NCBI GenBank assembly: GCA_040768105.1
Contig: JAXGNE010000013.1
Span: 7,490-71,489 of the forward strand
Direction of reading: 5' to 3'
DNA: 64,000 bases
DNA from: Anaerolineaceae bacterium
Lineage (GTDB): Bacteria > Chloroflexota > Anaerolineae > Anaerolineales > Anaerolineaceae
Shown: piece by piece, positions 2,108-49,287 of the stretch
Numbering within the stretch: position 1 is the stretch's first letter
How the letters are laid out: each line of letters opens with the position of its first letter
Program-made: the position numbers and the translations under genes
Notes under the pieces: generated by a model
Seen by the model: only the letters and a program-made list of their open reading frames with translations
The model's database searches: none
What the model was told of the DNA's origin: nothing

Positions 2108-2743
2108 AGCATGAATGCCGAGAATGGATTGATCACTAGCTTAGAAGTCACCCCTGGTAATGCTTATGATGGACATCATTTCTGTTCCTTGGTTGACCAC
2201 GATTTGGATCAAAACCTGGCTGTGGAAACATACACCGCTGATAGAGGCTATGATGATGGCAATAATCATTATTACCTGGAAGTTCGCCACCTGAATTCTG
2301 CTATCCGCTTGAGAGATATTCGTACCAAGAAGAAAGACAAAAACAAACAGCCCTGGGAAGAGCTATCTGCTATGCCCGAGTATCAAGAAGGTTTGAAGCA
2401 GCGTTATAAGATAGAGCGTAAATTCGGTGAGGCTAAACAAAACCATGGGTTAGGCCGCTGCCGTTACCTGGGATTGTTGGGATATATTGTTCAAGCTTAT
2501 TTCACTGCCATGGTCCTAGATCTAAAACGCATTGTAAAGATCTTGACGGGTATCGGATTCAAGACAAACAGTACTGTGGCTATGTAACCAAGGGACTACT
2601 GTCGCTACTATTGGAAAAGAGGCAAAATAAGTCAATTTTGAAGGTTCTGATTTAGAAGAATATTGCACCATTCAACTGAAATTCAATTGATCCATCTCAG
2701 TTCTAGCATTTATCAATATTCTTGATTTATTTCAACACCCTCT
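2108..2743 (+). mobile_element. 5'-truncated IS remnant (IS5/IS1182-like) at the duplication junction
   Basis: Carries only the C-terminal part of a DDE transposase. It ends at ...atttatttcaacaccctc, directly abutting the start of copy B. That this is the IS end is inference. Confidence 0.55.
2111..2587 (+). pseudogene. DDE transposase C-terminal fragment (IS5/IS1182-like)
   Basis: YTADRGYDD...RYKIERKFGEAKQNHGLGRCRYLGL is the conserved C-terminal DDE_Tnp_1 region. The N-terminal half of the protein is missing. Confidence 0.7.
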
Positions 2744-2773
2744 TTAAAATTGTGAAGGTTAATTATTTCTTTA

Positions 2774-3040
2774 TCACATCTGGATAAATTCAAGCACATT
2801 AACTACAAAAATTGTTGCCCGTTTTTGTTTTGGTTCTGGTGCTGGTGAACAATTTTCACGAATTATTTCCAAGGCACGCTGCACACGCTCGTCTTCCACG
2901 CCAATGAGCAAAGTGCTCCTGCCACTCCGTAAAAATCCGCCTGTTGAAGCAATAAATGTGACCCGAAAAGACTCTTGTGTGAGCATGTGTGAAACCGCGT
3001 CGTTGTCTTCATCTCGAATTATTGCGATGATCAGTTTCAT
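2774..3040 (-). CDS. PII-like c-di-AMP receptor family protein, short paralog, copy B
   Basis: Differs from copy A at 3 aa (V15A, D68E, L86I) despite more frequent nucleotide differences. Same 1-nt spacing to the upstream gene. Confidence 0.7.
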   Translation of the reverse strand: MKLIIAIIRDEDNDAVSHMLTQESFRVTFIASTGGFLRSGRSTLLIGVEDERVQRALEIIRENCSPAPEPKQKRATIFVVNVLEFIQM

Positions 3041-3041
3041 A

Positions 3042-3398
3042 TTAAATCTCCTCACAATGTTCAATTTCAACCGTAAATAAATTAGCACCACCAATTGTCA
3101 CTGGTGTTGGCATCGGCATCGGTAGTGGTGCGTTCTCAATTGGGACCGCAATAAATGAGACTCTCTTTCGACAGGTTTTATTTAGAAGCTCCTTGGCTTT
3201 TTCCTGCTCTGGATGAGGCACTTTAATAAGTAAGGTTGCATTGCGTCTCCCCAAAAAACCACCTACACTCGGCAATCGGGTAACTGAAAATTGTGCATTT
3301 TCTAAAACTTCACTCGCAATATCACTATCTTGCGCTTGTACAACCGCAATCATCAATACACAATTCTCTTTTATGGGATTATCGTCCTGTTGCTCCAT
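3042..3398 (-). CDS. PII-like c-di-AMP receptor family protein, long paralog, copy B
   Basis: About 10 aa differences from copy A, and the start codon is displaced relative to copy A. Confidence 0.75.
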   Translation of the reverse strand: MEQQDDNPIKENCVLMIAVVQAQDSDIASEVLENAQFSVTRLPSVGGFLGRRNATLLIKVPHPEQEKAKELLNKTCRKRVSFIAVPIENAPLPMPMPTPVTIGGANLFTVEIEHCEEI

Positions 3399-3494
3399 AT
3401 CACTATTTCCATACAGTTCGAAATTTTGCTTGGCTTCTTAAAATAAGTATACACCAAGTTGTTTGATAATTCTCAACCTAAAACAGGTCTCGTA

Positions 3495-3935
3495 TTAATC
3501 AAACCAGTTCACAACCATATCTTCCAGGTCAGACAGGTCAACTACCTCTTCACTGACTACTTTTCCGCGAACTGAAGCGCTTACCAAATGCACGCTTTTT
3601 GGATCACCGGATACTAATGGGTGCCACCAAGGCAGCCCTACACCCTTAGCAAGCAAGCGATAGGCACAAGTCTTCGGTAACCAGTTAGCATCATGGGCAA
3701 TTTTAGCGGTAACATAAACGCAATCTGGTACATTATCATGCCGGTTTTCGTAATCAGAGCATTTGCAAGTCTCTAAGTCCAGATAACGGCAGACAACATT
3801 AGTAAAATACACAGTATCACTGTCTGGATCAGTCAACTTGAATAAGCAGCATTTGGCACAACCATCACAAACAGCTTCCCACTCCTCGGGGGAGAATTCT
3901 TCAAGTTTTTTTGTTTTCCAGAAGTCTTTTTCCAT
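3495..3935 (-). CDS. ycgN: YcgN-family (UPF0260) cysteine-cluster protein
   Basis: CDGCAKCC...CRYLD...CKCSDYENR...LPWWHPL pattern is typical of UPF0260/YcgN. Confidence 0.8.
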   Translation of the reverse strand: MEKDFWKTKKLEEFSPEEWEAVCDGCAKCCLFKLTDPDSDTVYFTNVVCRYLDLETCKCSDYENRHDNVPDCVYVTAKIAHDANWLPKTCAYRLLAKGVGLPWWHPLVSGDPKSVHLVSASVRGKVVSEEVVDLSDLEDMVVNWFD

Positions 3936-4019
3936 GCTGCTTGTTTATCCTAAAGGGTAATTCTTAGAAATGACCTTATGACGTTAAAACGAATCTTCAT
4001 TTGATTCTCTAGACTAAAG

Positions 4020-4050
4020 TTGAAGTCGATCACTTACCTTTCGGTATAAT
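4020..4050 (+). promoter_or_regulatory. Candidate sigma70-type promoter giving a near-leaderless capA-like mRNA
   Basis: TTGAAG (4020-4025), a 19-nt spacer, then TATAAT (4045-4050). Only 8 nt separate the -10 from the ATG at 4059, and there is no SD. Confidence 0.4.
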
Positions 4051-4058
4051 AACACATA

Positions 4059-5132
4059 ATGAACTCGGGCAGAATAGGTAAACTAATACAAAGATTTTTA
4101 TTAATAGTTCCCTTTATTGTTCTGGTTATTGGTTGTAATAGGCCTGAAGCACCAGTATTTAAAGCCCAGGTCGATGTGGTTCCTACCCTAACCCAAGCAA
4201 TTATGGCGCCAATAGCCACACCAGAACCTAGCATACCTGCCCCTATAAATATTGAACCTACCCTTCAAAGAAAGCTTGAATTGATGGCTGTGGGCGATAT
4301 GATGTTGGATAGGAAACCTGCTTATGCAATTAAATCCATTGGACTGCTGGCACCCTTTGAACAAGTAGCAAGCACTCTCTCCAGCGCAGACATCAGCATC
4401 GGCAACCTGGAATGCGCAATTACTGAGCGGGGTACGGCCGAGTCTAAAACATACACCTTCAGAGCCCCTACTCTCGCTTCGCAATCTCTCCAATTAGCTG
4501 GGTTTGACCTGCTTACCTTAGCCAACAATCACAGCCTTGATTATGGAGAAGTAGGTTTGATGGATACTTTAGAAGCCCTACAATCCAATCAAATTCTCAC
4601 TGTTGGCGCTGGTGAAAATAAAACCACTGCCTTTGCCCCAGTAATTATTGAGAAAAATGGGATTAAACTGGCATTCCTTGCTTACTTGGATATCCAAAGC
4701 TGGCGCTATGATTACCAAGCGTGGGAAGCAACCGATAAAGAGCCTGGAATTGCTTGGGGACATCCTGAAATCATGACCCAAGAGATTAGGAAAGCCAAAC
4801 AACTGGCTGATTTTGTGATTGTATTGATGCATTTTGGCATGGAAGGTGAATACCCTCCGACCCAGCAACAGGTTGAAACAGCCCACAATGCCATCGATTC
4901 TGGCGCACTCCTGGTGATCGGGGCACATACACATCTACTTCAACCCATAGAAGAATACAATAATGGCCTGATTGCTTACAGCCTTGGCAATTTTGTCTTT
5001 GACGGCTTTGCGAGCAATGCGAATAAATCTGCTATTTTACATGTCACTCTTTCGACAAGTGGCATAGAATCACATAAATTAATACCGGTGGAGATTGATT
5101 CACAAGGATTTCCCAACCTCGTGTTGCCGTAG
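4059..5132 (+). CDS. CapA-family (PGA_cap) metallophosphatase-like lipoprotein
   Basis: Lipobox VLVIGC. AVGDMMLDR, NLECAIT and LANNHSLDYG motifs. Confidence 0.8.
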   Translation: MNSGRIGKLIQRFLLIVPFIVLVIGCNRPEAPVFKAQVDVVPTLTQAIMAPIATPEPSIPAPINIEPTLQRKLELMAVGDMMLDRKPAYAIKSIGLLAPFEQVASTLSSADISIGNLECAITERGTAESKTYTFRAPTLASQSLQLAGFDLLTLANNHSLDYGEVGLMDTLEALQSNQILTVGAGENKTTAFAPVIIEKNGIKLAFLAYLDIQSWRYDYQAWEATDKEPGIAWGHPEIMTQEIRKAKQLADFVIVLMHFGMEGEYPPTQQQVETAHNAIDSGALLVIGAHTHLLQPIEEYNNGLIAYSLGNFVFDGFASNANKSAILHVTLSTSGIESHKLIPVEIDSQGFPNLVLP

Positions 5133-41651: not shown

Positions 41652-41786
41652 AGCTACCTCAATTCCAACAGAGAACATCTTTTTATAATTGAGCTTAAGT
41701 TTATCACTTTTCACTCACGTTCTAATCTCATATAGCACAAATAAATTCATCGAACTGTTTGCACACAATTGTTTATAATTATCTGC

Positions 41787-42777
41787 ATGATGAAACATTT
41801 ACCTCAACTAAAAACTAAAGTGATTCCCATGCTTGGATTCCTAGTGTTGGCTTCAATGACCCTCTATTTACTCATCCAGACACTGATCCAGGCAGCATTA
41901 TGGCATTCATTCGGGGGAATCCTCTTAATCATCATCACACTTGGTGTTTTTATTGCGCTGTACTTTGAAGGCAAAAGAGTCTGGTTCAATGAACAAGACC
42001 TCATCAAATCTAAACGCCATTTCCGGGAATTTGTATCCGTAGTGGGTGGGGCTTTATTTACATACTACCTAGCGCATGACATCGGCGTTGGCATTGTGGT
42101 TGCTGCTAGCTTAGCCGGGGTTTTAGCCCATGTCTTCTTTGCCGATTTTGAAGCACCTTTCTTTGCCGGGGCTTTTGTTGGAATGAGTTCGACCGGACTA
42201 TTGTTCAACTATTCAGAATTAATCTTGGCAGCCGCAATTTCTGGTCTGACCTTTATCTTGGCTACGACTGTATTCCGCGGCTTTGGTGGAAAAATGGGAA
42301 CAGTAGCCTTGGTAGGCACCTTCTTGGCAGGCAGCAGCCTTATGCGCCAATTTGAATTACGGCCTTTACCAGCCTTTGATGTTATCATCCTAGTCTTTAT
42401 TTTTTCTGTTTTGACTACGCCATTAACACATTACCTGAACATTAAACGCGACCATGGTCCAGTGATGGCTTCTGCTGTGATTGGTTTAATGGCAGGCATA
42501 TTGTTACCGCGTTTTTTTTGCTGAAAACGGCAGCTTTTACGCGATTGTTGTGATTTGCGCTTCTTTCATTGGCATGACTGTGAAACCAGTTTGCAGTAAC
42601 TTCTGGCAAATTTCCCTTTCAGGGGTAATCATGGCAATCGTATTTGTCTATGCCACACCACTATTGAATGGAGCTGGCGGAAAACTAGGTGCAATTGCGT
42701 TTATTGCTGTCTTATCTATTTGCGGATTCCGCAAACTAGCTGAGGTTATAATTTCTGAGAGCAGCAGACCTAGTTAA
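41787..42777 (+). pseudogene. Polytopic membrane protein gene split by a +1 frameshift at a T8 run (ORFs 41787-42524 and 42550-42777)
   Basis: Removing one T from 42512-42519 reads ...LPRFFAENGSFYAIVVICASFIGMTV..., joining both ORFs. The motif GGK(M/L)G(T/A)(V/I)A occurs in both halves. Confidence 0.65.
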
Positions 42778-42812: not shown

Positions 42813-43769
42813 ATGCTCCATATGCGAAAAATCTACCTGATCATTATTTTGATATGCCTGTTGATTGGGACACATAAGCCTGCCCAAGCCCAAGCAGGCA
42901 GCGCCTATGACTTAATTGCTGAAGTAAACGCATACAGGGCGGCTAATGGTTTAGATGAATACAGCATTGATAGCTTCTTGATGGAGTACGCGCAAAGCCA
43001 CGCAGAATATTGTGCATCCATAGGTTATGGCACGCATACGCACCAAGACGGCACTGTCCCCTTTGACTCAGGTATCCAGGAAAATGTAGCAAGCGGCACA
43101 AACATGTCTGTTTCCTTTACGATTTACACCATCTGGGCTGATCCCGTGCACTGGAAGCTGATTGCAGGCAACAGCGGTGGCAGGATTGGTGCAGGCGCTG
43201 CGTACAGCGGTGATTCAGTTTATTACACTCTGAATGTCATCCCCTCGGGCACGACAGTCAGCGAACCACCTGAAAACACAACGGTAGTCCTTGCTGCCGT
43301 GCAACCCCAGGTAACCCAGGAATATATCGGTGAGGTAATTACAAACACCCCTAATGCAAACGGCATTGTCGTTCATTTTGTAAAATACGGTGAGTCACTT
43401 TGGTCCATTGCCATTGCTTACGGCACAACTGGTGCACAAATTATGGAAAATTCTGGCTTCAGTCCCAGCATAACCAATGTATTTGAAGGACAGAAATTAA
43501 TCATTAAAACCGCATCTCCCCCGACTGCTACCGTGCAGCCCTCAAAAACGCCTGTTCCACCTACACCAACCATCACACCGCCGAGGCCTACCCGCACGCC
43601 AATGCCGACACGCACGCCTATGCCCACGCCAACCCCCACCCAACCCCCGCCAGTGCTTTACCGGGCGTTTGGTGACAGCCAAACCCTTGGCACTGCCCTA
43701 GTTGGTCTCAGTTTGACCGGGTTGATATTGGTCGTCACTTTTGGTTTTTTGCGGAAGCCTAAACCTTAA
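42813..43769 (+). CDS. Secreted CAP/SCP-like + LysM protein with Pro/Thr-rich linker and C-terminal TM anchor
   Basis: Signal peptide. AYRAANGLDEY...YAQSHAEY (CAP-like). LysM VKYGESLWSIAIAYG. PTPTITPPRPTRTPMPTRTPMPTPTPT linker. Confidence 0.6.
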   Translation: MLHMRKIYLIIILICLLIGTHKPAQAQAGSAYDLIAEVNAYRAANGLDEYSIDSFLMEYAQSHAEYCASIGYGTHTHQDGTVPFDSGIQENVASGTNMSVSFTIYTIWADPVHWKLIAGNSGGRIGAGAAYSGDSVYYTLNVIPSGTTVSEPPENTTVVLAAVQPQVTQEYIGEVITNTPNANGIVVHFVKYGESLWSIAIAYGTTGAQIMENSGFSPSITNVFEGQKLIIKTASPPTATVQPSKTPVPPTPTITPPRPTRTPMPTRTPMPTPTPTQPPPVLYRAFGDSQTLGTALVGLSLTGLILVVTFGFLRKPKP

Positions 43770-43822
43770 TTTTTGGAAATCCAAACCTTGAAATAATTTT
43801 ATTAATTTGATCTTAAAAACCC

Positions 43823-43852
43823 TTGACAGCAAAAAAATAGTGGTGATAAAAT
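43823..43852 (+). promoter_or_regulatory. Near-consensus sigma70 promoter with extended -10
   Basis: TTGACA (43823-43828), an 18-nt spacer, then TGaTAAAAT (43844-43852). Confidence 0.65.
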
Positions 43853-43888
43853 AATGAAGTTAGGCCAATTCTACGAGAGGTAATTTTA

Positions 43889-43987
43889 ATGACAAGCACA
43901 ATCTACATCAAAATCAGCTTGCTTCGCAGCTCCGCCGTTTCTGGCGCCGCTCTGATTCAAGCATGGAATGTGCCTGTCCACAGTTAA
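43889..43987 (+). CDS. 32-codon leader uORF (MTSTIYIKISLLRSSAVSGAALIQAWNVPVHS)
   Basis: GAGAGG lies 8 nt upstream of the ATG. Below the ORF-track size cutoff. Followed by two terminators. Confidence 0.5.
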   Translation: MTSTIYIKISLLRSSAVSGAALIQAWNVPVHS

Positions 43988-44026
43988 CCTATACGCAACG
44001 ACTGTCCAGACCACGGGTACATTCCA
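43892..44026 (+). promoter_or_regulatory. Candidate transcription attenuator (mutually exclusive pairings 1:2, 2:3, 3:4)
   Basis: Segment 1 (43892-43905) pairs with segment 2 (43964-43977) at 12 of 14 positions. Segment 2 pairs with segment 3 (44013-44026) at 14 of 14 including 2 G-U. Segment 3 overlaps the left arm of terminator T1. Confidence 0.5.
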
Positions 44027-44042
44027 GTCCCGTGGTTTTTTT
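44010..44042 (+). terminator. Intrinsic terminator T1
   Basis: accacggg / cccgtggt 8-bp stem with an 11-nt loop, then a T-run to 44042. Confidence 0.8.
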
Positions 44043-44062
44043 ATTAATCACATTTTCTAGAC

Positions 44063-44095
44063 AAACCACGGGAAGAAGGCAACCCGTGGTTTTTT
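44063..44095 (+). terminator. Intrinsic terminator T2 (same stem core as T1)
   Basis: aaaccacggg / cccgtggttt stem with a 10-nt loop, then a T-run to 44095. Confidence 0.8.
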
Positions 44096-44144
44096 AGTCT
44101 GCCAGGGTACTTGTAGAAAAAAAAGCAAGATTAAGGAGAAAGAG

Positions 44145-45179
44145 ATGAAAAAAGAGGATTTATATCAATTGAAAACCCACCCAAGCTGGTGCTTGCGCCC
44201 ATTCACCCTGGCAGACGCCCCTGCCGTGGTCGAGATCATGCGCGCCAGCTCGCTAGCAAACCTAGGCTATGCTGATGTTGACCTTGAGGAAATGTTATCC
44301 GATTGGACTGCACCTGGTGTGGACCTACTAGAGACCGCCCGCGTCCTGGTGGACGAGCAAGGTCAGATCATTGGCTATTGCGATATCTGGGACTCGGAAG
44401 CCCCACATGTGACCAAGTGGTGCTGGGTTGATATTCACCCTGACCGCTGGGAAGATGCCGTTGCCCTGGAACTGCTGGGGTGGTCTGAGCAGGCTGCCCG
44501 TGCACGCATGCACCTGGCGCCTGATGGAGCACGTGTGATCCTGGGATACGGCTTAAACCACCGACAGGAGCGATCCCGCTGCATGCTGGAAGCAGCCAGT
44601 TTTGAGCTGGTGCGCCATTACTACCGCATGCAGATCGAACTGGACCAGCAGCCAGCACAGCCAGCTTTGAACGGCTTCGCAGTGCGCCCCATGCGCTACC
44701 CGGACGAGTTCCCCATGGCGGTCAATGCCATCCAGGAAGGCTTCCGCGACCATTGGGGGTACATTGAGCATGATGAGCAGGAGAACCTGGCGCACTGGCA
44801 GCACTATGTCGATAACAGCCTGTTTTTTGACCCCAGCCTGTGGTTCTTTGCCTTCACAGGTGAGCAATTGGCAGGGCTGTGCTTCTGCAAAGCTGGTATC
44901 AGCGAAGATCCTGAGTTGGGTTGGGTCAACCAACTGGCAGTACTGCGCTCCTACCGCCGACGGGGTCTGGGCAAAGCACTCCTGCAGCATGCCTTTTTTG
45001 AACTATATCAAAGGGGCAGGCGCAAGGTTGCGCTAGGCGTAGACGCCACCAGCCTGACAAACGCCACCCATTTATATGAAAGCGCCGGCATGCGAGTCGT
45101 CCGGCAGTATGATACCTACCATAAAGAATTGCGCCCAGGTAAGGACCTGAGCACACAAGAATTAGACAATACGGAGTAA
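44145..45179 (+). CDS. GNAT-family N-acetyltransferase, tandem-GNAT (MshD-like) architecture, GC-rich
   Basis: AAGGAG upstream. Q/R-x-x-G-x-G/A-type motif LRSYRRRGLGKALL. Homologous to the next gene (FRDHWGY, LGVD, LYES.G). Confidence 0.75.
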   Translation: MKKEDLYQLKTHPSWCLRPFTLADAPAVVEIMRASSLANLGYADVDLEEMLSDWTAPGVDLLETARVLVDEQGQIIGYCDIWDSEAPHVTKWCWVDIHPDRWEDAVALELLGWSEQAARARMHLAPDGARVILGYGLNHRQERSRCMLEAASFELVRHYYRMQIELDQQPAQPALNGFAVRPMRYPDEFPMAVNAIQEGFRDHWGYIEHDEQENLAHWQHYVDNSLFFDPSLWFFAFTGEQLAGLCFCKAGISEDPELGWVNQLAVLRSYRRRGLGKALLQHAFFELYQRGRRKVALGVDATSLTNATHLYESAGMRVVRQYDTYHKELRPGKDLSTQELDNTE

Positions 45180-45183
45180 GATC

Positions 45184-46212
45184 ATGTTTGTTCTACCGAT
45201 AACAAAAACAATAAATGTACAAAACAAACCAAACATTCCTGGGCTGACTTTCCGCCGCTTTGAAGGCGAGTCCGATTACCCAAAGATGATTGGCATAATT
45301 ACCGCCTGTAAAGATGTGGACCGTGAAGAACGCAGCGAAACTGTAGATGATTTGCGCAACCAGTATGCACACCTCCAAAATTGCGATCCATACACAGATA
45401 TGCTCTTTGCGGAGATTAATGACGAGCCTGTTGCTTATGCACGGGTTGGTTGGTTTGAGGAAAAAGACCCGGTCATTCGGGTTTATTACCATTTCTTTTT
45501 CCTAATACCTGAATGGCGCGGGCGAGGCATTGAAGAAGCCATAGCACGCTGGGCTGAAAAACGGCTTAAGAAGATAGCAGAAGCACATCCAAAAAATATC
45601 AAACGCGTTTTCTCAGTAGAATGCAGCGAGCATCAACAGGACAAGATAGCCCTGCTGGCAGGTTTAGGCTACAAACCCGAGCGTTACTTTGTCTCAATGT
45701 CTAGGCCACTCACAGACATACCCAAAGCAACTATGCCGGAGGGTATCGAAGTTCGGCCAGTCACGCCTGAGCAGCACGACCTGCTCTGGCAGGCAAGCAA
45801 TGAGGCATTTCGCGATCATTGGGGATATGCTGAGCCTTCTGATGAAGAATATACAGAATGGCGTAATTCACGTTGGTTCCAACCACAGCTCTGGCAGGTT
45901 GCCTGGGATGGCAATGAGGTTGTTGGCCAAGTTCAAAACTTTATTGACACTCTTGAAAACCAGGAATACAAGCGTCAGCGCGGTTACACTGAAGGCATCA
46001 GCGTACGCCGGCCTTGGCGAGGTCGCGGGATTGCCAAAGCCCTGATTGTGCGCTCAATGCATATGCATAAGGCATTGGGCATGACTGAAGTGGCACTAGG
46101 TGTGGATACCAATAACCCGAATGGTGCGCTTAAGCTCTATGAAAGCCTCGGCTATAAAGCTTACAAAACCTTGATTGTCTATCGCAAACCGATGCCGGGA
46201 CAGGAAAAATAG
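45184..46212 (+). CDS. GNAT-family N-acetyltransferase, tandem-GNAT architecture (paralog of the previous gene)
   Basis: EWRGRGIEEAI and RRPWRGRGIAKALI acetyl-CoA motifs. Start is 4 nt after the previous stop. Confidence 0.75.
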   Translation: MFVLPITKTINVQNKPNIPGLTFRRFEGESDYPKMIGIITACKDVDREERSETVDDLRNQYAHLQNCDPYTDMLFAEINDEPVAYARVGWFEEKDPVIRVYYHFFFLIPEWRGRGIEEAIARWAEKRLKKIAEAHPKNIKRVFSVECSEHQQDKIALLAGLGYKPERYFVSMSRPLTDIPKATMPEGIEVRPVTPEQHDLLWQASNEAFRDHWGYAEPSDEEYTEWRNSRWFQPQLWQVAWDGNEVVGQVQNFIDTLENQEYKRQRGYTEGISVRRPWRGRGIAKALIVRSMHMHKALGMTEVALGVDTNNPNGALKLYESLGYKAYKTLIVYRKPMPGQEK

Positions 46213-46214
46213 TT

Positions 46215-46250
46215 AAAAAGGCAGCAGGTATAAAACCCTGCTGCCTTTTT
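46215..46250 (+). terminator. Strong intrinsic terminator between GNAT2 and the ABC-F gene
   Basis: aaaaaggcagcagg-tataaaac-cctgctgccttttt, a perfect 14-bp stem. It starts 3 nt after the GNAT2 stop and ends 24 nt before the ABC-F ATG. Confidence 0.85.
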
Positions 46251-46273
46251 GATTGAGGAGAATTTACAAAATA

Positions 46274-47905
46274 ATGCTGCAAGTGAGTAACCTGAATAAA
46301 TCCTATGGCGTCCAAACCATCCTAAAAGACATCAGCTTTAATATACAAGGCAATGACCGGGTGGGACTGGTTGGTGCAAATGGCTGTGGGAAGAGTACCC
46401 TGCTGGATATCCTGACTGGCAAATTGCCAGCCGATAGCGGCATCGTTGCACTTGAAAAAGGTAAAATATTGGGATATCTTCCACAAAAAACATACCTTGA
46501 AGGCGAAATAAGCATACAAAATTACTTGGAAAATTGCATACCGGGCTTAATAGAAGCACAGCAGATAATTGAGGAATCAACAGAGCGTTTAAAAATAGGT
46601 GATCACGAAGCGCTTGCAGCTTATGGCCAAGCGGCCAACCAATATGAAGCCCTAGGTGGTTATCAATTTGAGTCTAAAGCGCAAGCCATTTTGGCTGGTC
46701 TTGGCCTTCCGTACCTGGGCTTAGACAGGCCTATGAGCCAGCTCAGCGGCGGGGAAGCAATGCGGGTACACCTGGCAGGCTTGCTCTTGGCTGAACCACA
46801 CATTTTATTATTAGATGAACCAACAAACCACCTGGATATTGAAGCCTTAGAGTGGTTGGAAGGTTTTTTGAAGACATACCAGGGGGCAGTTCTGCTTGTT
46901 TCCCATGACCGGGTATTCCTCGATGCAATTGTTGACCGGGTACTTGAAATCGACGAGGATACGCACACCCTGCGTGAGTATGCAGGTAACTACAGCGGCT
47001 ACGCCAGGCAAAAAGAACTGGAATTGCAAAAATTGGTGGCTGCCTGGCAGGATCAACGAGAGGAAATCAAACGACTGAGAACCGATGCCCAGCGCACAGC
47101 CGAACAAGCCCGCCATTCAGAATTAGCAACCAGGGACTCTACCTTACGCAGGTATGCAAAAAAAGTAGCCAAAAAAGCCAAAGCAAAAGAAAAAAGACTG
47201 GAACGCTACCTGGATTCTGATGAAAGAGTAGAAAAACCAGAAGAAAAATGGCGCCTGCGGGTCAATTTTGACGAAGGCGCACACCAAAGCCAGCTCGTCC
47301 TTGCCGCCAGGTCGCTTGGACATGCATACCAGTCTGGTTGGCTTTTCCAAGACTTAGATCTGAACATCCAGCAGGGTGATCGTATAGCGCTTATCGGCCC
47401 GAATGGCTGCGGAAAATCGACCTTACTGAAGTGTTTATTGGGTGAAATACAGCCAAGCGCTGGCACGGTCCGCATAGGGAACAGCACCAAGATCGGGTAC
47501 ATGCCGCAACAACAGGAAAATTTGCCCCCAGGGAAAACGCCCATTGAAATCATCCAAGCAATTGCCCCGATGAATCAGAGCGAAGTGCATCACTTCTTAC
47601 ATTATTTTTTATTTGAACAAGAGCAGGCACGCCTGCCAAATCATTGTCTCAGCTTTGGGCAGAGGGCACGCCTACTGCTGGCAAAGCTGGTTGCCAGTGG
47701 CGCCAATTGCTTGGTTTTGGATGAACCAGTAAACCACTTGGATATCCCTTCACGAGAGCAATTTGAACGAGCACTAGAAATGTTTAAGGGGACTGTCGTA
47801 GTGGTGGCACATGACCGCGCCTTTATTCAACGCACAGCGGATATCATTTGGAAGCTAAATGACGGCGCGTTATCTATTTCATACTTGAAGAATATTTTGC
47901 AGTGA
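46274..47905 (+). CDS. ABC-F family ATPase (two ABC domains, no TM domain)
   Basis: Walker A GANGCGKST and GPNGCGKST, LSGGE signature, and a charged Lys/Arg/Glu-rich interdomain linker. Alternative TTG start at 46253. Confidence 0.85.
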   Translation: MLQVSNLNKSYGVQTILKDISFNIQGNDRVGLVGANGCGKSTLLDILTGKLPADSGIVALEKGKILGYLPQKTYLEGEISIQNYLENCIPGLIEAQQIIEESTERLKIGDHEALAAYGQAANQYEALGGYQFESKAQAILAGLGLPYLGLDRPMSQLSGGEAMRVHLAGLLLAEPHILLLDEPTNHLDIEALEWLEGFLKTYQGAVLLVSHDRVFLDAIVDRVLEIDEDTHTLREYAGNYSGYARQKELELQKLVAAWQDQREEIKRLRTDAQRTAEQARHSELATRDSTLRRYAKKVAKKAKAKEKRLERYLDSDERVEKPEEKWRLRVNFDEGAHQSQLVLAARSLGHAYQSGWLFQDLDLNIQQGDRIALIGPNGCGKSTLLKCLLGEIQPSAGTVRIGNSTKIGYMPQQQENLPPGKTPIEIIQAIAPMNQSEVHHFLHYFLFEQEQARLPNHCLSFGQRARLLLAKLVASGANCLVLDEPVNHLDIPSREQFERALEMFKGTVVVVAHDRAFIQRTADIIWKLNDGALSISYLKNILQ

Positions 47906-48132
47906 AAACGATTTCGATTATCACCCGTATAAATTGTTACTGATTGCTTTATGACTCGTTTCATTCTTTAAAAGCTTCAAATTTTCCTGACACCACTTAT
48001 ACAAAAAATATACAAATTGCAATCATTTTGCTATATTATTTTCTAGGAATGAGAAAACAATCTAGTGTTTATGAAATTTTTATTTTTATGGTGTAGATTC
48101 AAAATCACTAGCAAAAAATATAAGGAACGCGT

Positions 48133-49287
48133 ATGAACAAAAGCAAATTATTTTACCTGGTATTGGTTATTCTGCTGGCAGGCGCATCAAGCCTGGCAGG
48201 TCTTGCCGTGGGTGGGTTTGCCGTCTACCGTATCCTCACCGTCAATAATGATGATACAGCCGCACTCAGTCAACCAACAGCTGATTCGATCAGCAGTTAT
48301 GAACCAATTGAGCAGAAGGTCGACATTACCTCTGTTGATGTAGAGACCGCCGTCACTAATTCAGTACAGAAAATTGCCCCTACGGTTGTCACGGTGGTTG
48401 GCACGGTAACCTACCAAACTTTTCCCTTTGGACAGCCAGCCGAGCAAACCGTCAGCGGCAGTGGTGTTTTCATCTCTGAAGATGGCTACATCTTAACAAA
48501 TAATCACGTTGTGGAAGGTACCAATACTCTCAATATTATCCTCTCAGATGGATCAGAACAAGAAGTGGTCATCGTTGGCACAGATAAATTTTCAGATATT
48601 GCTGTATTGAAAACTGAAGGTACTGTGCCCGCATATGCAGAACTTGGTAACTCGGATAACATGGACCCTGGAGAAAGTGTGATTGCAATTGGTTCACCTT
48701 TGGGCGAATTCATGAATACAGTCACGGTGGGTGTGATCAGCGCGACTGGCCGATCAATTGATACTGGCGAGGGCTACCAGATTGAAGGGCTCCTTCAGAC
48801 GGACGCCGCCATTAATGTCGGCAACTCCGGCGGACCCTTGGTCAACTTAGCCGGTGAAGTCATCGGCATCAACACCCTGATCGTGCGCAGTTCTGGCAGT
48901 GGTACGGTTGCTGAAGGACTGGGTTTTGCAGTGCCATCCAACACGGCTGGTGCAATTGCCACCCAGATTATTGAAAAAGGATTCTTTGCCCGCCCAAATC
49001 TCGGTATAGCCATCCAAGCCATCACCCCTCAACTGGCCAGGATGTACCGCTTACCGGTTGAATATGGTGCTTACATTACCCAACTGCAAGACGGCAGCCC
49101 TGCAGATGTGGCAGGTTTGCAGGTTGGCGATATTATCACCAGCATAGGCGGCACTGCTATAGACAGCTCGAATTCTTATATTAATATCCTGTTCCGCTTC
49201 AATCCCGGCGAACAAATCGTAATAGAATTTGTCAGGAACAATACTCTTCAAGAAGTACAAGTTGAATTGGCCGGGTCTGGCACGTAA
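48133..49287 (+). CDS. HtrA/DegP-family serine protease with PDZ domain
   Basis: ILTNNHVV, DIAVLK and GNSGGPL triad context. PDZ GLQVGDIITSIGG. Confidence 0.9.
   Translation: MNKSKLFYLVLVILLAGASSLAGLAVGGFAVYRILTVNNDDTAALSQPTADSISSYEPIEQKVDITSVDVETAVTNSVQKIAPTVVTVVGTVTYQTFPFGQPAEQTVSGSGVFISEDGYILTNNHVVEGTNTLNIILSDGSEQEVVIVGTDKFSDIAVLKTEGTVPAYAELGNSDNMDPGESVIAIGSPLGEFMNTVTVGVISATGRSIDTGEGYQIEGLLQTDAAINVGNSGGPLVNLAGEVIGINTLIVRSSGSGTVAEGLGFAVPSNTAGAIATQIIEKGFFARPNLGIAIQAITPQLARMYRLPVEYGAYITQLQDGSPADVAGLQVGDIITSIGGTAIDSSNSYINILFRFNPGEQIVIEFVRNNTLQEVQVELAGSGT

What the first reader, a model, noticed from the sequence alone, without database searches (positions are those of the whole stretch)
43823..47905. 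Leader - GNAT - GNAT - terminator - ABC-F arrangement resembles a translation-stress or antibiotic-responsive module
In Firmicutes and Actinobacteria, ABC-F ribosome-protection genes and some drug-modifying enzymes are commonly controlled by uORF-dependent attenuation. Here a uORF attenuator precedes two tandem-domain GNAT acetyltransferases and an ABC-F ATPase, all on one strand with tight spacing (4 nt between the GNATs). The combination of an acetyltransferase pair with an ABC-F gene under a stacked-terminator leader is not one I recognise as a described operon type. Whether this ABC-F is a resistance-type or a housekeeping-type paralog cannot be decided by eye.
Basis: inference. Interest (0 to 1): 0.6.

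Follow-up and report, generated by a model that had tools for sequence, protein, structure and literature searches.

The report
Ribosome-sensing leader controlling acetyltransferases and ABC-F
A short translated leader with a switchable transcription stop signal sits in front of two acetyltransferase genes and a ribosome-binding ABC-F gene, and comparison with related uncultured bacteria shows this is a conserved module of the kind that switches on drug-defence genes when protein synthesis falters.

Summary
A near-consensus promoter, a 32-codon uORF and twin terminators lie at 43823-44095. They are followed by two tandem-domain GNAT genes 4 nt apart, a strong hairpin terminator, and an ABC-F gene whose real start is ATG 46274.

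The leader belongs to a large family. A strict pattern finds it in 121 of 301 genomes of the same bacterial family, and a covariance model finds it in 43 of 61 relatives across the order.

Family members share these features:
- a Shine-Dalgarno site and a roughly 32-codon uORF ending ...GGV.VP[SC]R[SIN]APV.[RG]-stop;
- a covarying antiterminator between the uORF 3' end and the terminator's 5' arm plus loop;
- a stop codon at a fixed distance from the motif and the terminator.

The leaders precede tandem GNATs, ABC exporters, an MFS pump and an unknown 150-aa protein.

All 20 orthologues of this ABC-F found in the family sample lie behind a uORF-terminator leader. Eleven or twelve lie directly after leader-controlled GNATs, and eight have their own leader.

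The ABC-F is not EttA or Uup, which the genome carries separately. Its interdomain linker is about 25 residues longer than in housekeeping types.

Earlier follow-ups in this scan found the same leader family on other DNA. I found no published description.

The parts
43823..43852 (+). Sigma-70-type promoter: TTGACA, 18-nt spacer with extended TG, TAAAAT
   Evidence: 11 of 12 positions match, the best site in 43500-48300. Homologous leaders in relatives carry a TTGAC promoter at the same relative position.
43875..43880 (+). Shine-Dalgarno site (GAGAGG) of the leader ORF, 8 nt before the ATG
   Evidence: In the family, 86 of 93 leaders have an SD-like site plus a start codon that gives 24-36 codons.
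43889..43987 (+). Leader ORF, 32 codons plus TAA: MTSTIYIKISLLRSSAVSGAALIQAWNVPVHS. It is a divergent member of the ...GGV.VP[SC]R[SIN]APV.[RG]* leader-peptide family.
   Evidence: The stop lies exactly 4 codons after the Pro codon in 89 of 100 family members. Synonymous codon variety at conserved Gly and Arg positions shows selection on the peptide. Other gene callers called it as a 32-aa gene in metagenome contigs.
43917..43962 (+). Hairpin in the middle of the uORF (GC-rich centre CGCCG-UUUC-UGGCG); possible RNA polymerase pause or spacing element
   Evidence: Present in every fold of the leader. The equivalent coding stretch, the Gly run, is conserved in the family. A pausing role is inferred only.
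43965..43977 (+). Antiterminator 5' strand GGAAUGUGCCUGU (codons W-N-V-P-V of the uORF); 'region 2'
   Evidence: It pairs with 44013-44025 over 13 pairs, two of them G-U, and the region folds at -24.5 kcal/mol. In 93 family members 86.5% of cells in this helix are paired, against 35-52% in slid controls. Covariation exceeded all 500 shuffles, with compensatory changes at three pairs.
44010..44042 (+). Terminator T1: ACCACGGG / loop UACAUUCCAGU / CCCGUGGU followed by U7. Bases 44013-44025 (5' arm plus loop) form the antiterminator 3' strand.
   Evidence: -17.2 kcal/mol. The family helix is 94.7% paired, with compensatory changes at the outer pairs.
44064..44095 (+). Terminator T2, with the same stem core as T1 followed by U6
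   Evidence: -15.3 kcal/mol. When the antiterminator holds the T1 5' arm, the freed T1 3' arm can pair with the T2 5' arm (-19.6 kcal/mol) before the T2 3' arm is made. This relay is inferred. A second look-alike terminator occurs in 19 of 93 family members.
44145..45179 (+). GNAT1, a tandem-domain GCN5-related N-acetyltransferase of 344 aa. The acetyl-CoA motif RRRGLGKA is clear only in the C-terminal domain.
   Evidence: Pfam Acetyltransf_1 at 3.7e-17. PDB 3tt2 at 5e-38 over residues 18-338. MshD model 45.5 bits against a cut-off of 163. SD AAGGAG at 44132-44137. G+C is 56% against about 48% for neighbouring genes.
45184..46212 (+). GNAT2, a tandem-domain GNAT of 342 aa and a paralogue of GNAT1 (about 28% identity)
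   Evidence: Pfam Acetyltransf_1 at 1.2e-21 in two stretches. PDB 7q3a at 3e-30 and MshD at 2e-7. MshD model 60.8 bits against a cut-off of 163. Orthologues: 74% identity in G437, 61% in G460, 36-47% in genus g44.
46215..46250 (+). Hairpin terminator between GNAT2 and the ABC-F gene: GGCAGCAGG / UAUAAAAC / CCUGCUGCC flanked by A5 and U5. It begins 2 nt after the GNAT2 stop.
   Evidence: No promoter-like site lies between it and the ABC-F start. Orthologous loci have either a hairpin without a U-tract (G437, G460) or only a 3-20-nt gap (genus g44).
46274..47905 (+). ABC-F ATPase of 543 aa with an extended interdomain linker and no C-terminal extension. SD GAGGAG at 46255-46260.
   Evidence: Pfam. 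NCBIfam NF000355 467 bits against a cut-off of 380; all named ARE, EttA and Uup models fall below their cut-offs. Tree. Linker measure. Orthologue contexts.

Best explanation
The stretch is one transcription unit governed by a ribosome-sensing leader-peptide attenuator.

**Proposed mechanism.**
- Transcription starts at the promoter at 43823-43852, and the 32-codon leader ORF is translated.
- The 3' end of the ORF (GGAAUGUGCCUGU) can pair with the 5' arm and loop of terminator T1. This forms the antiterminator.
- When translation runs normally, the lead ribosome reaches the last codons or the stop codon and covers that strand. T1, and then T2, form, and transcription stops.
- Without any ribosome, the 5' part of the ORF pairs with the same strand (a 1:2 helix), which also allows termination.
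- When the ribosome is held up early in the ORF, the strand stays free and the antiterminator forms. A translation inhibitor, or a shortage of charged tRNA, could cause such a hold-up.
- The freed 3' arm of T1 then neutralises T2, and RNA polymerase reads into GNAT1 and GNAT2.
- The ABC-F gene is reached by read-through of the hairpin that starts 2 nt after the GNAT2 stop.

**Proposed products.** These assignments are inferred. The two acetyltransferases would modify a translation-targeting compound. The ABC-F protein has a long ARE-like linker and would act on stalled ribosomes.

**Shown:** the anatomy, the covarying antiterminator and terminator, selection on the leader peptide, conservation of the gene linkage, and the ABC-F clade and linker length.

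**Inferred:** the direction of the switch, the inducing signal, the substrates, and read-through into the ABC-F gene.
For: **Anatomy and energies.**

**The leader belongs to a family.**
- A strict pattern matches in 121 of 301 genomes of the same family, with few hits for the reversed control pattern.
- Covariance model R1 matches in 43 of 61 relatives, including 11 of 17 other families of the order. Some genomes have 2-3 dispersed copies. This genome has exactly one.

**The uORF is translated.**
- The stop codon lies 4 codons after the Pro codon in 89 of 100 members.
- An SD site plus a start codon gives 24-36 codons, mode 32, in 86 of 93 members.
- The final Arg uses six different codons, the Gly run uses four, and Arg at position -7 uses CGG, CGT or CGA.

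**The RNA switch.**
- The antiterminator is 86.5% paired against 35-52% in slid controls, with covariation above all 500 shuffles.
- The terminator is 94.7% paired.
- The spacing from the stop codon to the terminator is held at 20-29 nt.

**Genes that the leaders control.** First genes downstream are tandem GNATs (23), ABC ATPase or exporter genes (15), Acetyltransf_3 GNATs (3), an MFS pump (1) and a 150-aa protein of unknown family (50).

**The ABC-F gene.**
- The leader-GNAT-ABC-F order is conserved in G437, G460 and ten genomes of genus g44. Gaps in g44 are only 3-20 nt.
- The other 8 orthologues have their own uORF-terminator leader.
- Genomes with the GNAT-linked form have no closer copy of the mini-uORF form.

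**Precedents for the mechanism.** The vmlR leader (PMC9226507) and the whiB7 uORF attenuator. The WhiB7 regulon includes an acetyltransferase (eis) and an efflux pump (tap) (PMC10274678).
Against:
- A strong hairpin with U5 separates GNAT2 from the ABC-F gene here, so the ABC-F gene may receive little read-through.
- In G437 the equivalent spacer holds a promoter-like TTGTTG-17-TATATA (by eye). One orthologue, in G034, follows smpB with no GNAT.
- This copy of the leader peptide departs from the family consensus at three conserved positions: W for R, Q for P and V for A.
- A conserved 1:2 anti-antiterminator was not recovered at family level. RNAalifold finds only the terminator.
- A ribosome arrested on the conserved C-terminal motif would favour termination, so the meaning of the peptide's conservation is open.
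- The GNAT substrates are unknown.
- The family alignment was collected with a pattern that fixes parts of both helices, so only the unfixed columns carry evidence.
Confidence: 0.62

Rival explanations
1. The leader controls only the two GNAT genes. The hairpin at 46215-46250 ends that operon. The ABC-F gene is an independently expressed ribosome factor that merely lies next door.
For: - The hairpin is strong, with a U-tract, and lies directly after GNAT2.
- The G034 orthologue lies after smpB with no GNAT.
- The G437 spacer of 117 nt contains a promoter-like sequence.
- Synteny with G437 extends to the HtrA gene, so part of the adjacency is simple shared ancestry.
Against: - No promoter-like site lies between GNAT2 and the ABC-F start in this genome.
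- In ten genomes of genus g44 the ABC-F gene follows the GNAT with gaps of 3-20 nt and no hairpin.
- Orthologues without an upstream GNAT have their own uORF-terminator leader, so attenuation control is a constant of the clade.
- The hairpin starts 2 nt after the stop codon, where a terminating ribosome would interfere with it.
Confidence: 0.2
2. The conserved leader peptide is the functional centre. It could be an intrinsic or ligand-dependent arrest peptide that parks the ribosome on the antiterminator strand. The motif R-x-A-P resembles SecM's RAGP and the RAPP arrest motifs. The signal would then be whatever relieves or causes that arrest, not stalling early in the ORF.
For: - There is peptide-level selection on ...GGV.VP[SC]R[SIN]APV.[RG]*.
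- Arg lies three residues before Pro, as in RAPP and RAGP arrest motifs (PMC10951233 and PMC7897499).
- The stop position is fixed.
- No family-wide anti-antiterminator was found.
Against: - The most invariant codons (GCG CCU GU) also lie in the RNA helix, so part of the conservation is at RNA level.
- This window's copy and G020 carry W in place of the Arg.
- No stalling assay exists.
Confidence: 0.1
3. The 32-residue peptide is a secreted or modified product, a RiPP-like precursor with a Gly-Gly motif. The hairpin after it only sets the ratio of precursor to enzyme transcripts. The GNATs and ABC exporters would tailor and export the peptide.
For: - The order short conserved ORF, hairpin, acetyltransferases, ABC or MFS exporters is also the classic layout of peptide natural-product clusters.
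- A conserved G-G precedes a conserved 12-residue tail.
Against: - The covarying antiterminator overlaps the ORF's 3' end.
- The spacing from stop codon to terminator is tightly held.
- Copies are dispersed before unrelated operons within one genome.
- The exporters lack a peptidase domain in the parts seen.
- A ribosome-binding ABC-F gene is linked, and its sister clade uses 5-7-codon mini-uORFs that cannot be products.
Confidence: 0.05
4. The leader is an amino-acid-specific attenuator (Ile/Thr codons at positions 2-9) of metabolic acetyltransferases.
For: Codons 2-9 in this leader hold three Ile and two Thr. The G020 leader is similar.
Against: - The N-terminal halves vary across the family with no shared codon enrichment; the conserved part is the C-terminus.
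- The controlled genes are exporters, GNATs and an ABC-F gene, not biosynthetic genes.
Confidence: 0.03

Closest known systems
Bacillus subtilis vmlR leader (uORF, anti-antiterminator, antiterminator, terminator) controlling an ARE ABC-F (Takada et al. 2022, PMC9226507)
   Same: A uORF and an intrinsic terminator lie upstream of an ABC-F gene with a long linker, and stalling on the uORF decides antitermination. The sister clade of this ABC-F, and eight of its orthologues, have just such mini-uORF leaders.
   Different: - Here the leader ORF is 32 codons with a conserved C-terminal peptide.
- The antiterminator strand lies inside the ORF's last codons.
- Two acetyltransferase genes and a second terminator lie between the leader and the ABC-F gene.
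- There is no sequence similarity, and the phylum differs.
whiB7 5' leader uORF attenuator of mycobacteria and other actinobacteria (PMC10274678)
   Same: Efficient translation of a uORF of a few tens of codons gives termination, and translation stress gives antitermination. The output includes an acetyltransferase (eis) and an efflux pump (tap), by the paper's own words.
   Different: - whiB7 works through a transcription factor (in trans). Here each operon carries its own copy of the leader (in cis).
- The whiB7 uORF is variable and Ala-rich, whereas this family has a fixed C-terminal motif.
bmrB-bmrCD of Bacillus subtilis (leader-peptide attenuation of a multidrug ABC exporter; from my own knowledge and named in earlier scan notes)
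   Same: A leader peptide plus a terminator controls drug-export genes. Many members of this leader family precede ABC exporters.
   Different: This copy controls GNATs and an ABC-F gene, not an exporter. The peptide and the RNA are unrelated.
RAPP/RAGP-type ribosome arrest peptides (SecM, ApdA, ApdP; PMC10951233, PMC7897499)
   Same: The family consensus R-[SIN]-A-P places Arg three residues before a Pro near the C-terminus, as in RAGP and RAPP.
   Different: - There is only one Pro.
- The motif is followed by V-x-x-stop.
- It is not upstream of Sec or YidC genes.
- Arrest is untested.
- This window's copy has Trp instead of Arg.
ARE-type ABC-F proteins (Msr, Vga, Lsa, Sal, OptrA, PoxtA; ARE4 producers CarA/OleB/SrmB/TlrC, reported for Actinobacteria and Chloroflexi in PMC6723617)
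   Same: Two nucleotide-binding domains, no transmembrane domain, and a linker extended to near the length seen in Lsa, Vga and Msr (165 against 172-176). The gene is under attenuator-type regulation.
   Different: - Identity to any named ARE is only 27-33%.
- The protein scores below every named ARE family cut-off.
- It forms a separate clade in the tree.
- No resistance phenotype is known.

Membership tests
Leader-peptide (ribosome-mediated) transcription attenuator | Translatable short ORF with a ribosome-binding site in the 5' leader | tested here: met
   SD GAGAGG, ATG at 43889 and 32 codons. In the family, 86 of 93 leaders have an SD plus a start codon; the stop position is fixed and there is peptide-level codon variety.
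Leader-peptide (ribosome-mediated) transcription attenuator | Intrinsic terminator between the leader ORF and the structural genes | tested here: met
   T1 (-17.2 kcal/mol, U7) and T2 (-15.3 kcal/mol, U6). The family helix is 94.7% paired.
Leader-peptide (ribosome-mediated) transcription attenuator | Mutually exclusive antiterminator that involves sequence inside or next to the ORF | tested here: met
   43965-43977 pairs with 44013-44025. The helix is 86.5% paired against 35-52% in slid controls, with covariation above all 500 shuffles.
Leader-peptide (ribosome-mediated) transcription attenuator | Read-through depends on ribosome position or stalling | not testable with these tools
   This needs reporter, toeprint or 3'-end mapping experiments.
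Anaerolineae-type '...R-S-A-P-V-x-R*' leader family (defined here and in earlier scan notes) | RNA core: GCCUGU strand, 20-29 nt after the stop, CACGGG-loop-CCCGUG terminator | tested here: met
   Pattern match. Model R1 scores 67.7 bits, E = 2.6e-12, though the window's own sequence was in the training alignment.
Anaerolineae-type '...R-S-A-P-V-x-R*' leader family (defined here and in earlier scan notes) | Consensus peptide P(-9), R(-7), A(-5), P(-4), V(-3) | tested here: inconclusive
   The window has Q, W, V, P, V at these positions. Only P(-4) and V(-3) are kept. The nearest relative G437 keeps R(-7).
ARE (antibiotic-resistance) ABC-F | Two ABC domains joined by a linker, with no membrane domain | tested here: met
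   Pfam ABC_tran twice plus ABC_tran_Xtn. The generic model NF000355 scores 467 bits against a cut-off of 380, but 8 of 14 control genomes also pass it.
ARE (antibiotic-resistance) ABC-F | Linker (ARD) extended relative to housekeeping ABC-F proteins | tested here: met
   The distance from the first H-loop to the second Walker A is 165 residues. It is 140-143 in EttA, Uup, YbiT and YheS, 151 in PoxtA, and 172-176 in Lsa, Vga and Msr.
ARE (antibiotic-resistance) ABC-F | Membership of a named ARE subfamily (Msr, Vga, Lsa, Sal, OptrA, CplR, producer type) | tested here: not met
   All named models score below their curated cut-offs, for example the producer type at 342 against 800 and Msr at 340 against 680. 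No supported grouping appears in the tree.
ARE (antibiotic-resistance) ABC-F | Confers resistance to a ribosome-targeting drug | not testable with these tools
   This needs MIC tests in a laboratory strain.
Housekeeping ABC-F (EttA, Uup, YbiT, YheS) | Groups with, and passes the curated model of, one of these | tested here: not met
   EttA model 332 bits against 599, Uup 352 against 900, YheS-type 306 against 917. The genome's own EttA is a different gene, at C14, with support 100.
Mycothiol synthase MshD | Passes TIGR03448 | tested here: not met
   45.5 and 60.8 bits against a cut-off of 163. Only the tandem-GNAT fold is shared.
Eis / AAC aminoglycoside acetyltransferases | Passes an AAC model, or has the Eis architecture (GNAT-GNAT-SCP2) | tested here: not met
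   AAC models score at most 29.5 bits against cut-offs of 140-320. There is no SCP2-type domain, and no Eis chain appears among PDB matches at E <= 0.01.

The most novel reading that the evidence does not exclude
The conserved tail of the leader peptide (V-P-[SC]-R-[SIN]-A-P-V-x-[RG]-stop) may be a new ribosome-arrest or sensor peptide. It would hold the ribosome on the antiterminator strand.

Many Anaerolineae would then have a cis-encoded equivalent of the mycobacterial WhiB7 resistome. One leader design would be copied in front of acetyltransferases, exporters and ARE-like ABC-F genes, and tuned by the nascent chain rather than by codon content.

This window would be a variant in which the Arg of the motif has been lost, with an RNA 1:2 helix compensating.
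Probability: 0.3. Interest if true: 0.75.

Novelty: new variant of a known kind. Interest (0 to 1): 0.6.

Why it matters
Ribosome-sensing leaders that switch on resistance genes are known mainly from Firmicutes and Actinobacteria. This module shows the same logic in uncultured Chloroflexota-type bacteria.

- The leader family has a conserved peptide, which is unusual for such leaders.
- It ties three kinds of defence to one sensor: drug acetylation, export in sister operons, and ribosome protection by an ABC-F.
- It gives a testable set of candidate environmental resistance determinants: two tandem GNATs of unknown substrate and a new long-linker ABC-F clade.
- It gives a compact natural switch whose peptide and RNA contributions can be separated by mutation.

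Tried and rejected
- **Rfam.** A search over 43000-48500 at E <= 1 found nothing in the leader; the only hits were weak matches to the GNAT2-ABC-F hairpin.
- **RNAalifold on 93 full leaders.** It recovered only the terminator, so a family-wide anti-antiterminator is not shown.
- **The search for related loci in genome contigs with the ABC-F alignment.** It used generic ABC patterns and returned only hits of at most 39% identity from many phyla.
- **Strain variants.** The 4.7-kb stretch is 100% identical in four metagenome contigs, so they were uninformative.
- **PDB codes 7Q3A and 3TT2.** They led to no functional paper.
- **Literature searches.** Searches for such a leader in Chloroflexi, and for ABC-F proteins in Chloroflexi, found no description of this leader. 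Murina et al. note only that ARE4 occurs in Actinobacteria and Chloroflexi.
- **Readings rejected.**
  - An Ile/Thr attenuator: the N-termini vary across the family.
  - A riboswitch with an incidental ORF: the fixed stop position and the synonymous codon variety argue against it.
  - A RiPP precursor: it is kept only as a low-probability rival.
- **Structure prediction.** I did not run it, because the sequence matches already pointed only to uncharacterised tandem GNATs.
- **Taxon name.** The name (Anaerolineae/Chloroflexota) comes only from earlier scan notes.

Full report
**Observation**

- The promoter-like site TTGACA-18-TAAAAT, with an extended TG, matches 11 of 12 positions and is the best site in the region.
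- It is followed by GAGAGG, an ATG at 43889, and a 32-codon ORF that ends at 43987.
- Two intrinsic terminators follow, with the same stem core ACCACGGG/CCCGUGGU and U-tracts, at 44010-44042 and 44064-44095. Their folding energies are -17.2 and -15.3 kcal/mol.
- The leader folds much better than shuffled sequence (z = -4.85).
- The stem motif occurs nowhere else in the 2.3-Mb assembly.
- GNAT1 (44145-45179) and GNAT2 (45184-46212) are 4 nt apart. Both match tandem-GNAT crystal structures over their whole length.
- A hairpin with A5/U5 flanks begins 2 nt after the GNAT2 stop.
- The ABC-F gene follows. Its true start is ATG 46274, because all orthologues begin MLQV.

**The leader is one of a family**

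While checking whether relatives keep the operon, I found a homologous leader in front of the GNAT1 orthologue of G020. A look-alike with twin terminators sits in front of a GNAT2-like gene in G037.
- A BLAST search of the leader over 400 genomes of the order found more copies, in at least three families.
- The pattern GCCTRY-N(8-38)-CACGGG-N(4-20)-CCCGTG matched in 121 of 301 genomes of the window's own family. The reversed control pattern matched far less often.
- I fetched 100 of these loci and kept 93 distinct leaders.
- A covariance model built from them found the element in 43 of 61 relatives: 29 of 36 genomes in the family, and 11 of the 17 other families of the order. Up to three dispersed copies occur per genome. 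This genome has one.

**The uORF is translated and its peptide is under selection**
- In 89 of 100 loci the stop codon lies exactly four codons after the Pro codon of the motif.
- An SD-like site plus a start codon (81 ATG) gives an ORF of 24-36 codons, mode 32, in 86 of 93 leaders.
- Aligned from the stop codon, the peptides read ...[AS][AVD]x[GS]GG[VA]x[VIL]P[SCY]R[SIN]APVx[RG]*.
- The last Arg is written with six different codons, the Gly run with four, and Arg at -7 with CGG, CGT or CGA. This is the signature of selection on the amino acid, not only on the RNA.
- The window's peptide (…LIQAWNVPVHS*) is a divergent member. It keeps P-V but has Q, W and V where the consensus has P, R and A.
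- Its closest relative, G437, has …VIHVRNVPVAC*.

**The RNA switch**

The strand GGAGUGCGCCUGU (here GGAAUGUGCCUGU, 43965-43977) is complementary to the last five bases of the terminator's 5' arm plus its loop (44013-44025).
- On the 93-sequence alignment this antiterminator is paired in 86.5% of cells, against 35-52% when the partner is slid by 1-3 columns.
- Three pairs show changes on both sides (for example G-C to U-A), and covariation exceeds all 500 shuffles.
- The terminator helix is 94.7% paired, with compensatory changes at its outer pairs.
- The inner parts of both helices were fixed by my search pattern, so only the other columns carry evidence, and related sequences inflate shuffle tests.
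- The distance from the stop codon to CACGGG is held at 20-29 nt.

In this window:
- The antiterminator region folds at -24.5 kcal/mol.
- The untranslated ORF folds on itself at -35.3 kcal/mol, with codons 1-6 pairing with the antiterminator strand (a 1:2 helix).
- The equilibrium fold of the full leader is that helix plus T1.
- If the antiterminator is formed, the freed 3' arm of T1 can pair with the identical 5' arm of T2 (-19.6 kcal/mol) before the T2 3' arm is made. This would explain why the two stems are identical. This relay is inferred. Only 19 of 93 leaders have a second look-alike terminator.

**What the leaders control**

The first gene after the leader, among the 100 fetched loci, is:

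| First downstream gene | Loci |
|---|---|
| 150-aa protein with no Pfam family | 50 |
| Tandem GNAT like GNAT1 or GNAT2 | 23 |
| ABC ATPase or exporter | 15 |
| Acetyltransf_3-type GNAT | 3 |
| MFS transporter | 1 |

Homologues of the window's GNATs across the order sit further down such operons, often after an ABC-2 exporter.

**The ABC-F gene**

The genome has four ABC-F genes. The tree included E. coli EttA, Uup, YbiT and YheS, and plasmid-borne PoxtA, OptrA, Msr(A), Msr(E), Lsa(E) and Vga(A). It shows the following.
- One paralogue is EttA (support 100).
- One belongs to a Uup-length group.
- One is unplaced.
- The window's gene forms a clade with GNAT-linked orthologues (support 99).
- That clade is sister (support 99) to a clade whose members each carry a promoter, a 5-7-codon mini-uORF, a terminator and a masked start, as seen directly.
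- Deep nodes are unresolved, and the tree was a quick search.

The distance from the first H-loop to the second Walker A is 165 residues in the window's protein and its orthologues:

| Protein(s) | Distance (residues) |
|---|---|
| EttA | 140 |
| Uup, YheS, OptrA | 142 |
| YbiT | 143 |
| PoxtA | 151 |
| Window's ABC-F and its orthologues | 165 |
| Lsa(E), Vga(A) | 172 |
| Msr(A), Msr(E) | 175-176 |

Only the generic NCBIfam model is passed. All named ARE and housekeeping models fall below their cut-offs. Identity to named AREs is 27-33%.

**Linkage**

In 301 family genomes, 20 have an orthologue at E <= 1e-140, in six genera.
- Eleven lie directly after a GNAT2-type gene: this genome, G437, G460 and eight of genus g44. 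A twelfth probably does, but it is cut by a contig end.
- In g44 the gaps are 3-20 nt with no hairpin, and the family leader lies in front of the GNATs.
- G437 keeps the whole order leader-GNAT1-GNAT2-ABC-F-HtrA, at 66-74% protein identity.
- The eight orthologues without a GNAT (genera g8 and g20) each have their own promoter, short uORF and terminator directly upstream. In g8 the core GCCUGY...CACGGG...CCCGUG is the same.
- Genomes with the GNAT-linked form have no closer copy of the mini-uORF form.
- So within this sample every orthologue sits behind a uORF-terminator leader. This is the strongest argument that the ABC-F gene belongs to the same response.
- One orthologue in another family (G034) follows smpB instead.

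**What remains open here**
- In this genome a strong hairpin with U5 lies between GNAT2 and the ABC-F gene, and I found no promoter after it.
- A ribosome terminating at the GNAT2 stop would cover the base of the hairpin, so coupled translation may suppress it. This is inference.
- The direction of the main switch, the inducer and the GNAT substrates are also inferred.
- The GNATs are not MshD, Eis or AAC by the tests available.
- No expression data could be obtained.

**Comparison with what is known**
- The design works like the vmlR leader (PMC9226507).
- It also works like the whiB7 uORF attenuator, whose regulon includes an acetyltransferase and an efflux pump (PMC10274678).
- It differs in having a conserved leader peptide, in placing the antiterminator strand in the last codons of the ORF, and in being copied in cis before each operon.
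- The consensus R-x-A-P recalls RAPP/RAGP arrest motifs, but arrest is untested and this copy lacks the Arg.
- Literature searches found no description of this leader.
- Earlier follow-ups in this scan reported what appears to be the same leader family in front of exporter/acetyltransferase operons and an ABC-F gene in other Anaerolineae genomes. My analysis was done on this window's relatives, without sight of their data, and agrees with them.

**Verdict**

This is a real, conserved, attenuator-controlled acetyltransferase/ABC-F module. It is a new variant of a known kind of switch.

Noticed in passing
L065-L160 (for example L153, L097, L145); not in the window: The commonest first gene behind this leader family (50 of 100 loci) encodes a protein of about 150 aa. 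It reads MxExLMKxGxYRVDYLN...NLVAVYVDI...RPAYQQMKRDLxxGMFxRV and has no Pfam family. The layout faintly recalls a resolvase-type domain without the catalytic Ser.
   Followed up: partly
L164-L182 (relatives), upstream of their ABC-F genes: A second leader type lies before the sister clade of ABC-F genes: a promoter, a 5-7-codon mini-uORF (MTDNN*, MIRSNL*, MTESNL*), a CCGAGGGC..GCCCUCGG terminator and an ACAGGUUGC box next to the start codon. In genus g8 (L291, L293, L294, L297) a mini-uORF is combined with the GCCUGY/CACGGG core of the long-uORF family, which suggests the two leader types are related.
   Followed up: partly
window 44145-45179: GNAT1 has 56% G+C (63.5% at third codon positions), against 47-50% for its neighbours. 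In G437 all genes of the operon have about 55% G+C. GNAT1 may therefore have been replaced by a copy from a relative with higher G+C.
   Followed up: partly
L194 (G034:C145), 2723-4834 in the orientation of the ABC-F gene: In another family of the order, the orthologous ABC-F gene starts 10 nt after smpB, which encodes the trans-translation factor. This is a different link to ribosome rescue.
   Followed up: no
window 43274-48000; L286-L289: The same ABC-F protein is on record on 22 contigs. The four read (ERZ27268617, SRR27558885, SRR32971144, ERR7570001) are 100% identical to the window over the up to 4.7 kb that each covers, so this organism is widespread and clonal at this locus.
   Followed up: partly
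window 41769-42777: Two adjacent ORFs (41769-42524 and 42550-42777) look like one membrane protein split at a T-run, as an earlier first-reader note says. I did not examine it.
   Followed up: no
G000:C13:146000-150500 (L195), outside the window: The genome's fourth ABC-F (552 aa, linker measure 154) was left unplaced in the tree. It lies inside an operon between two small enzyme-like genes and a UbiX-like gene, with no leader.
   Followed up: no
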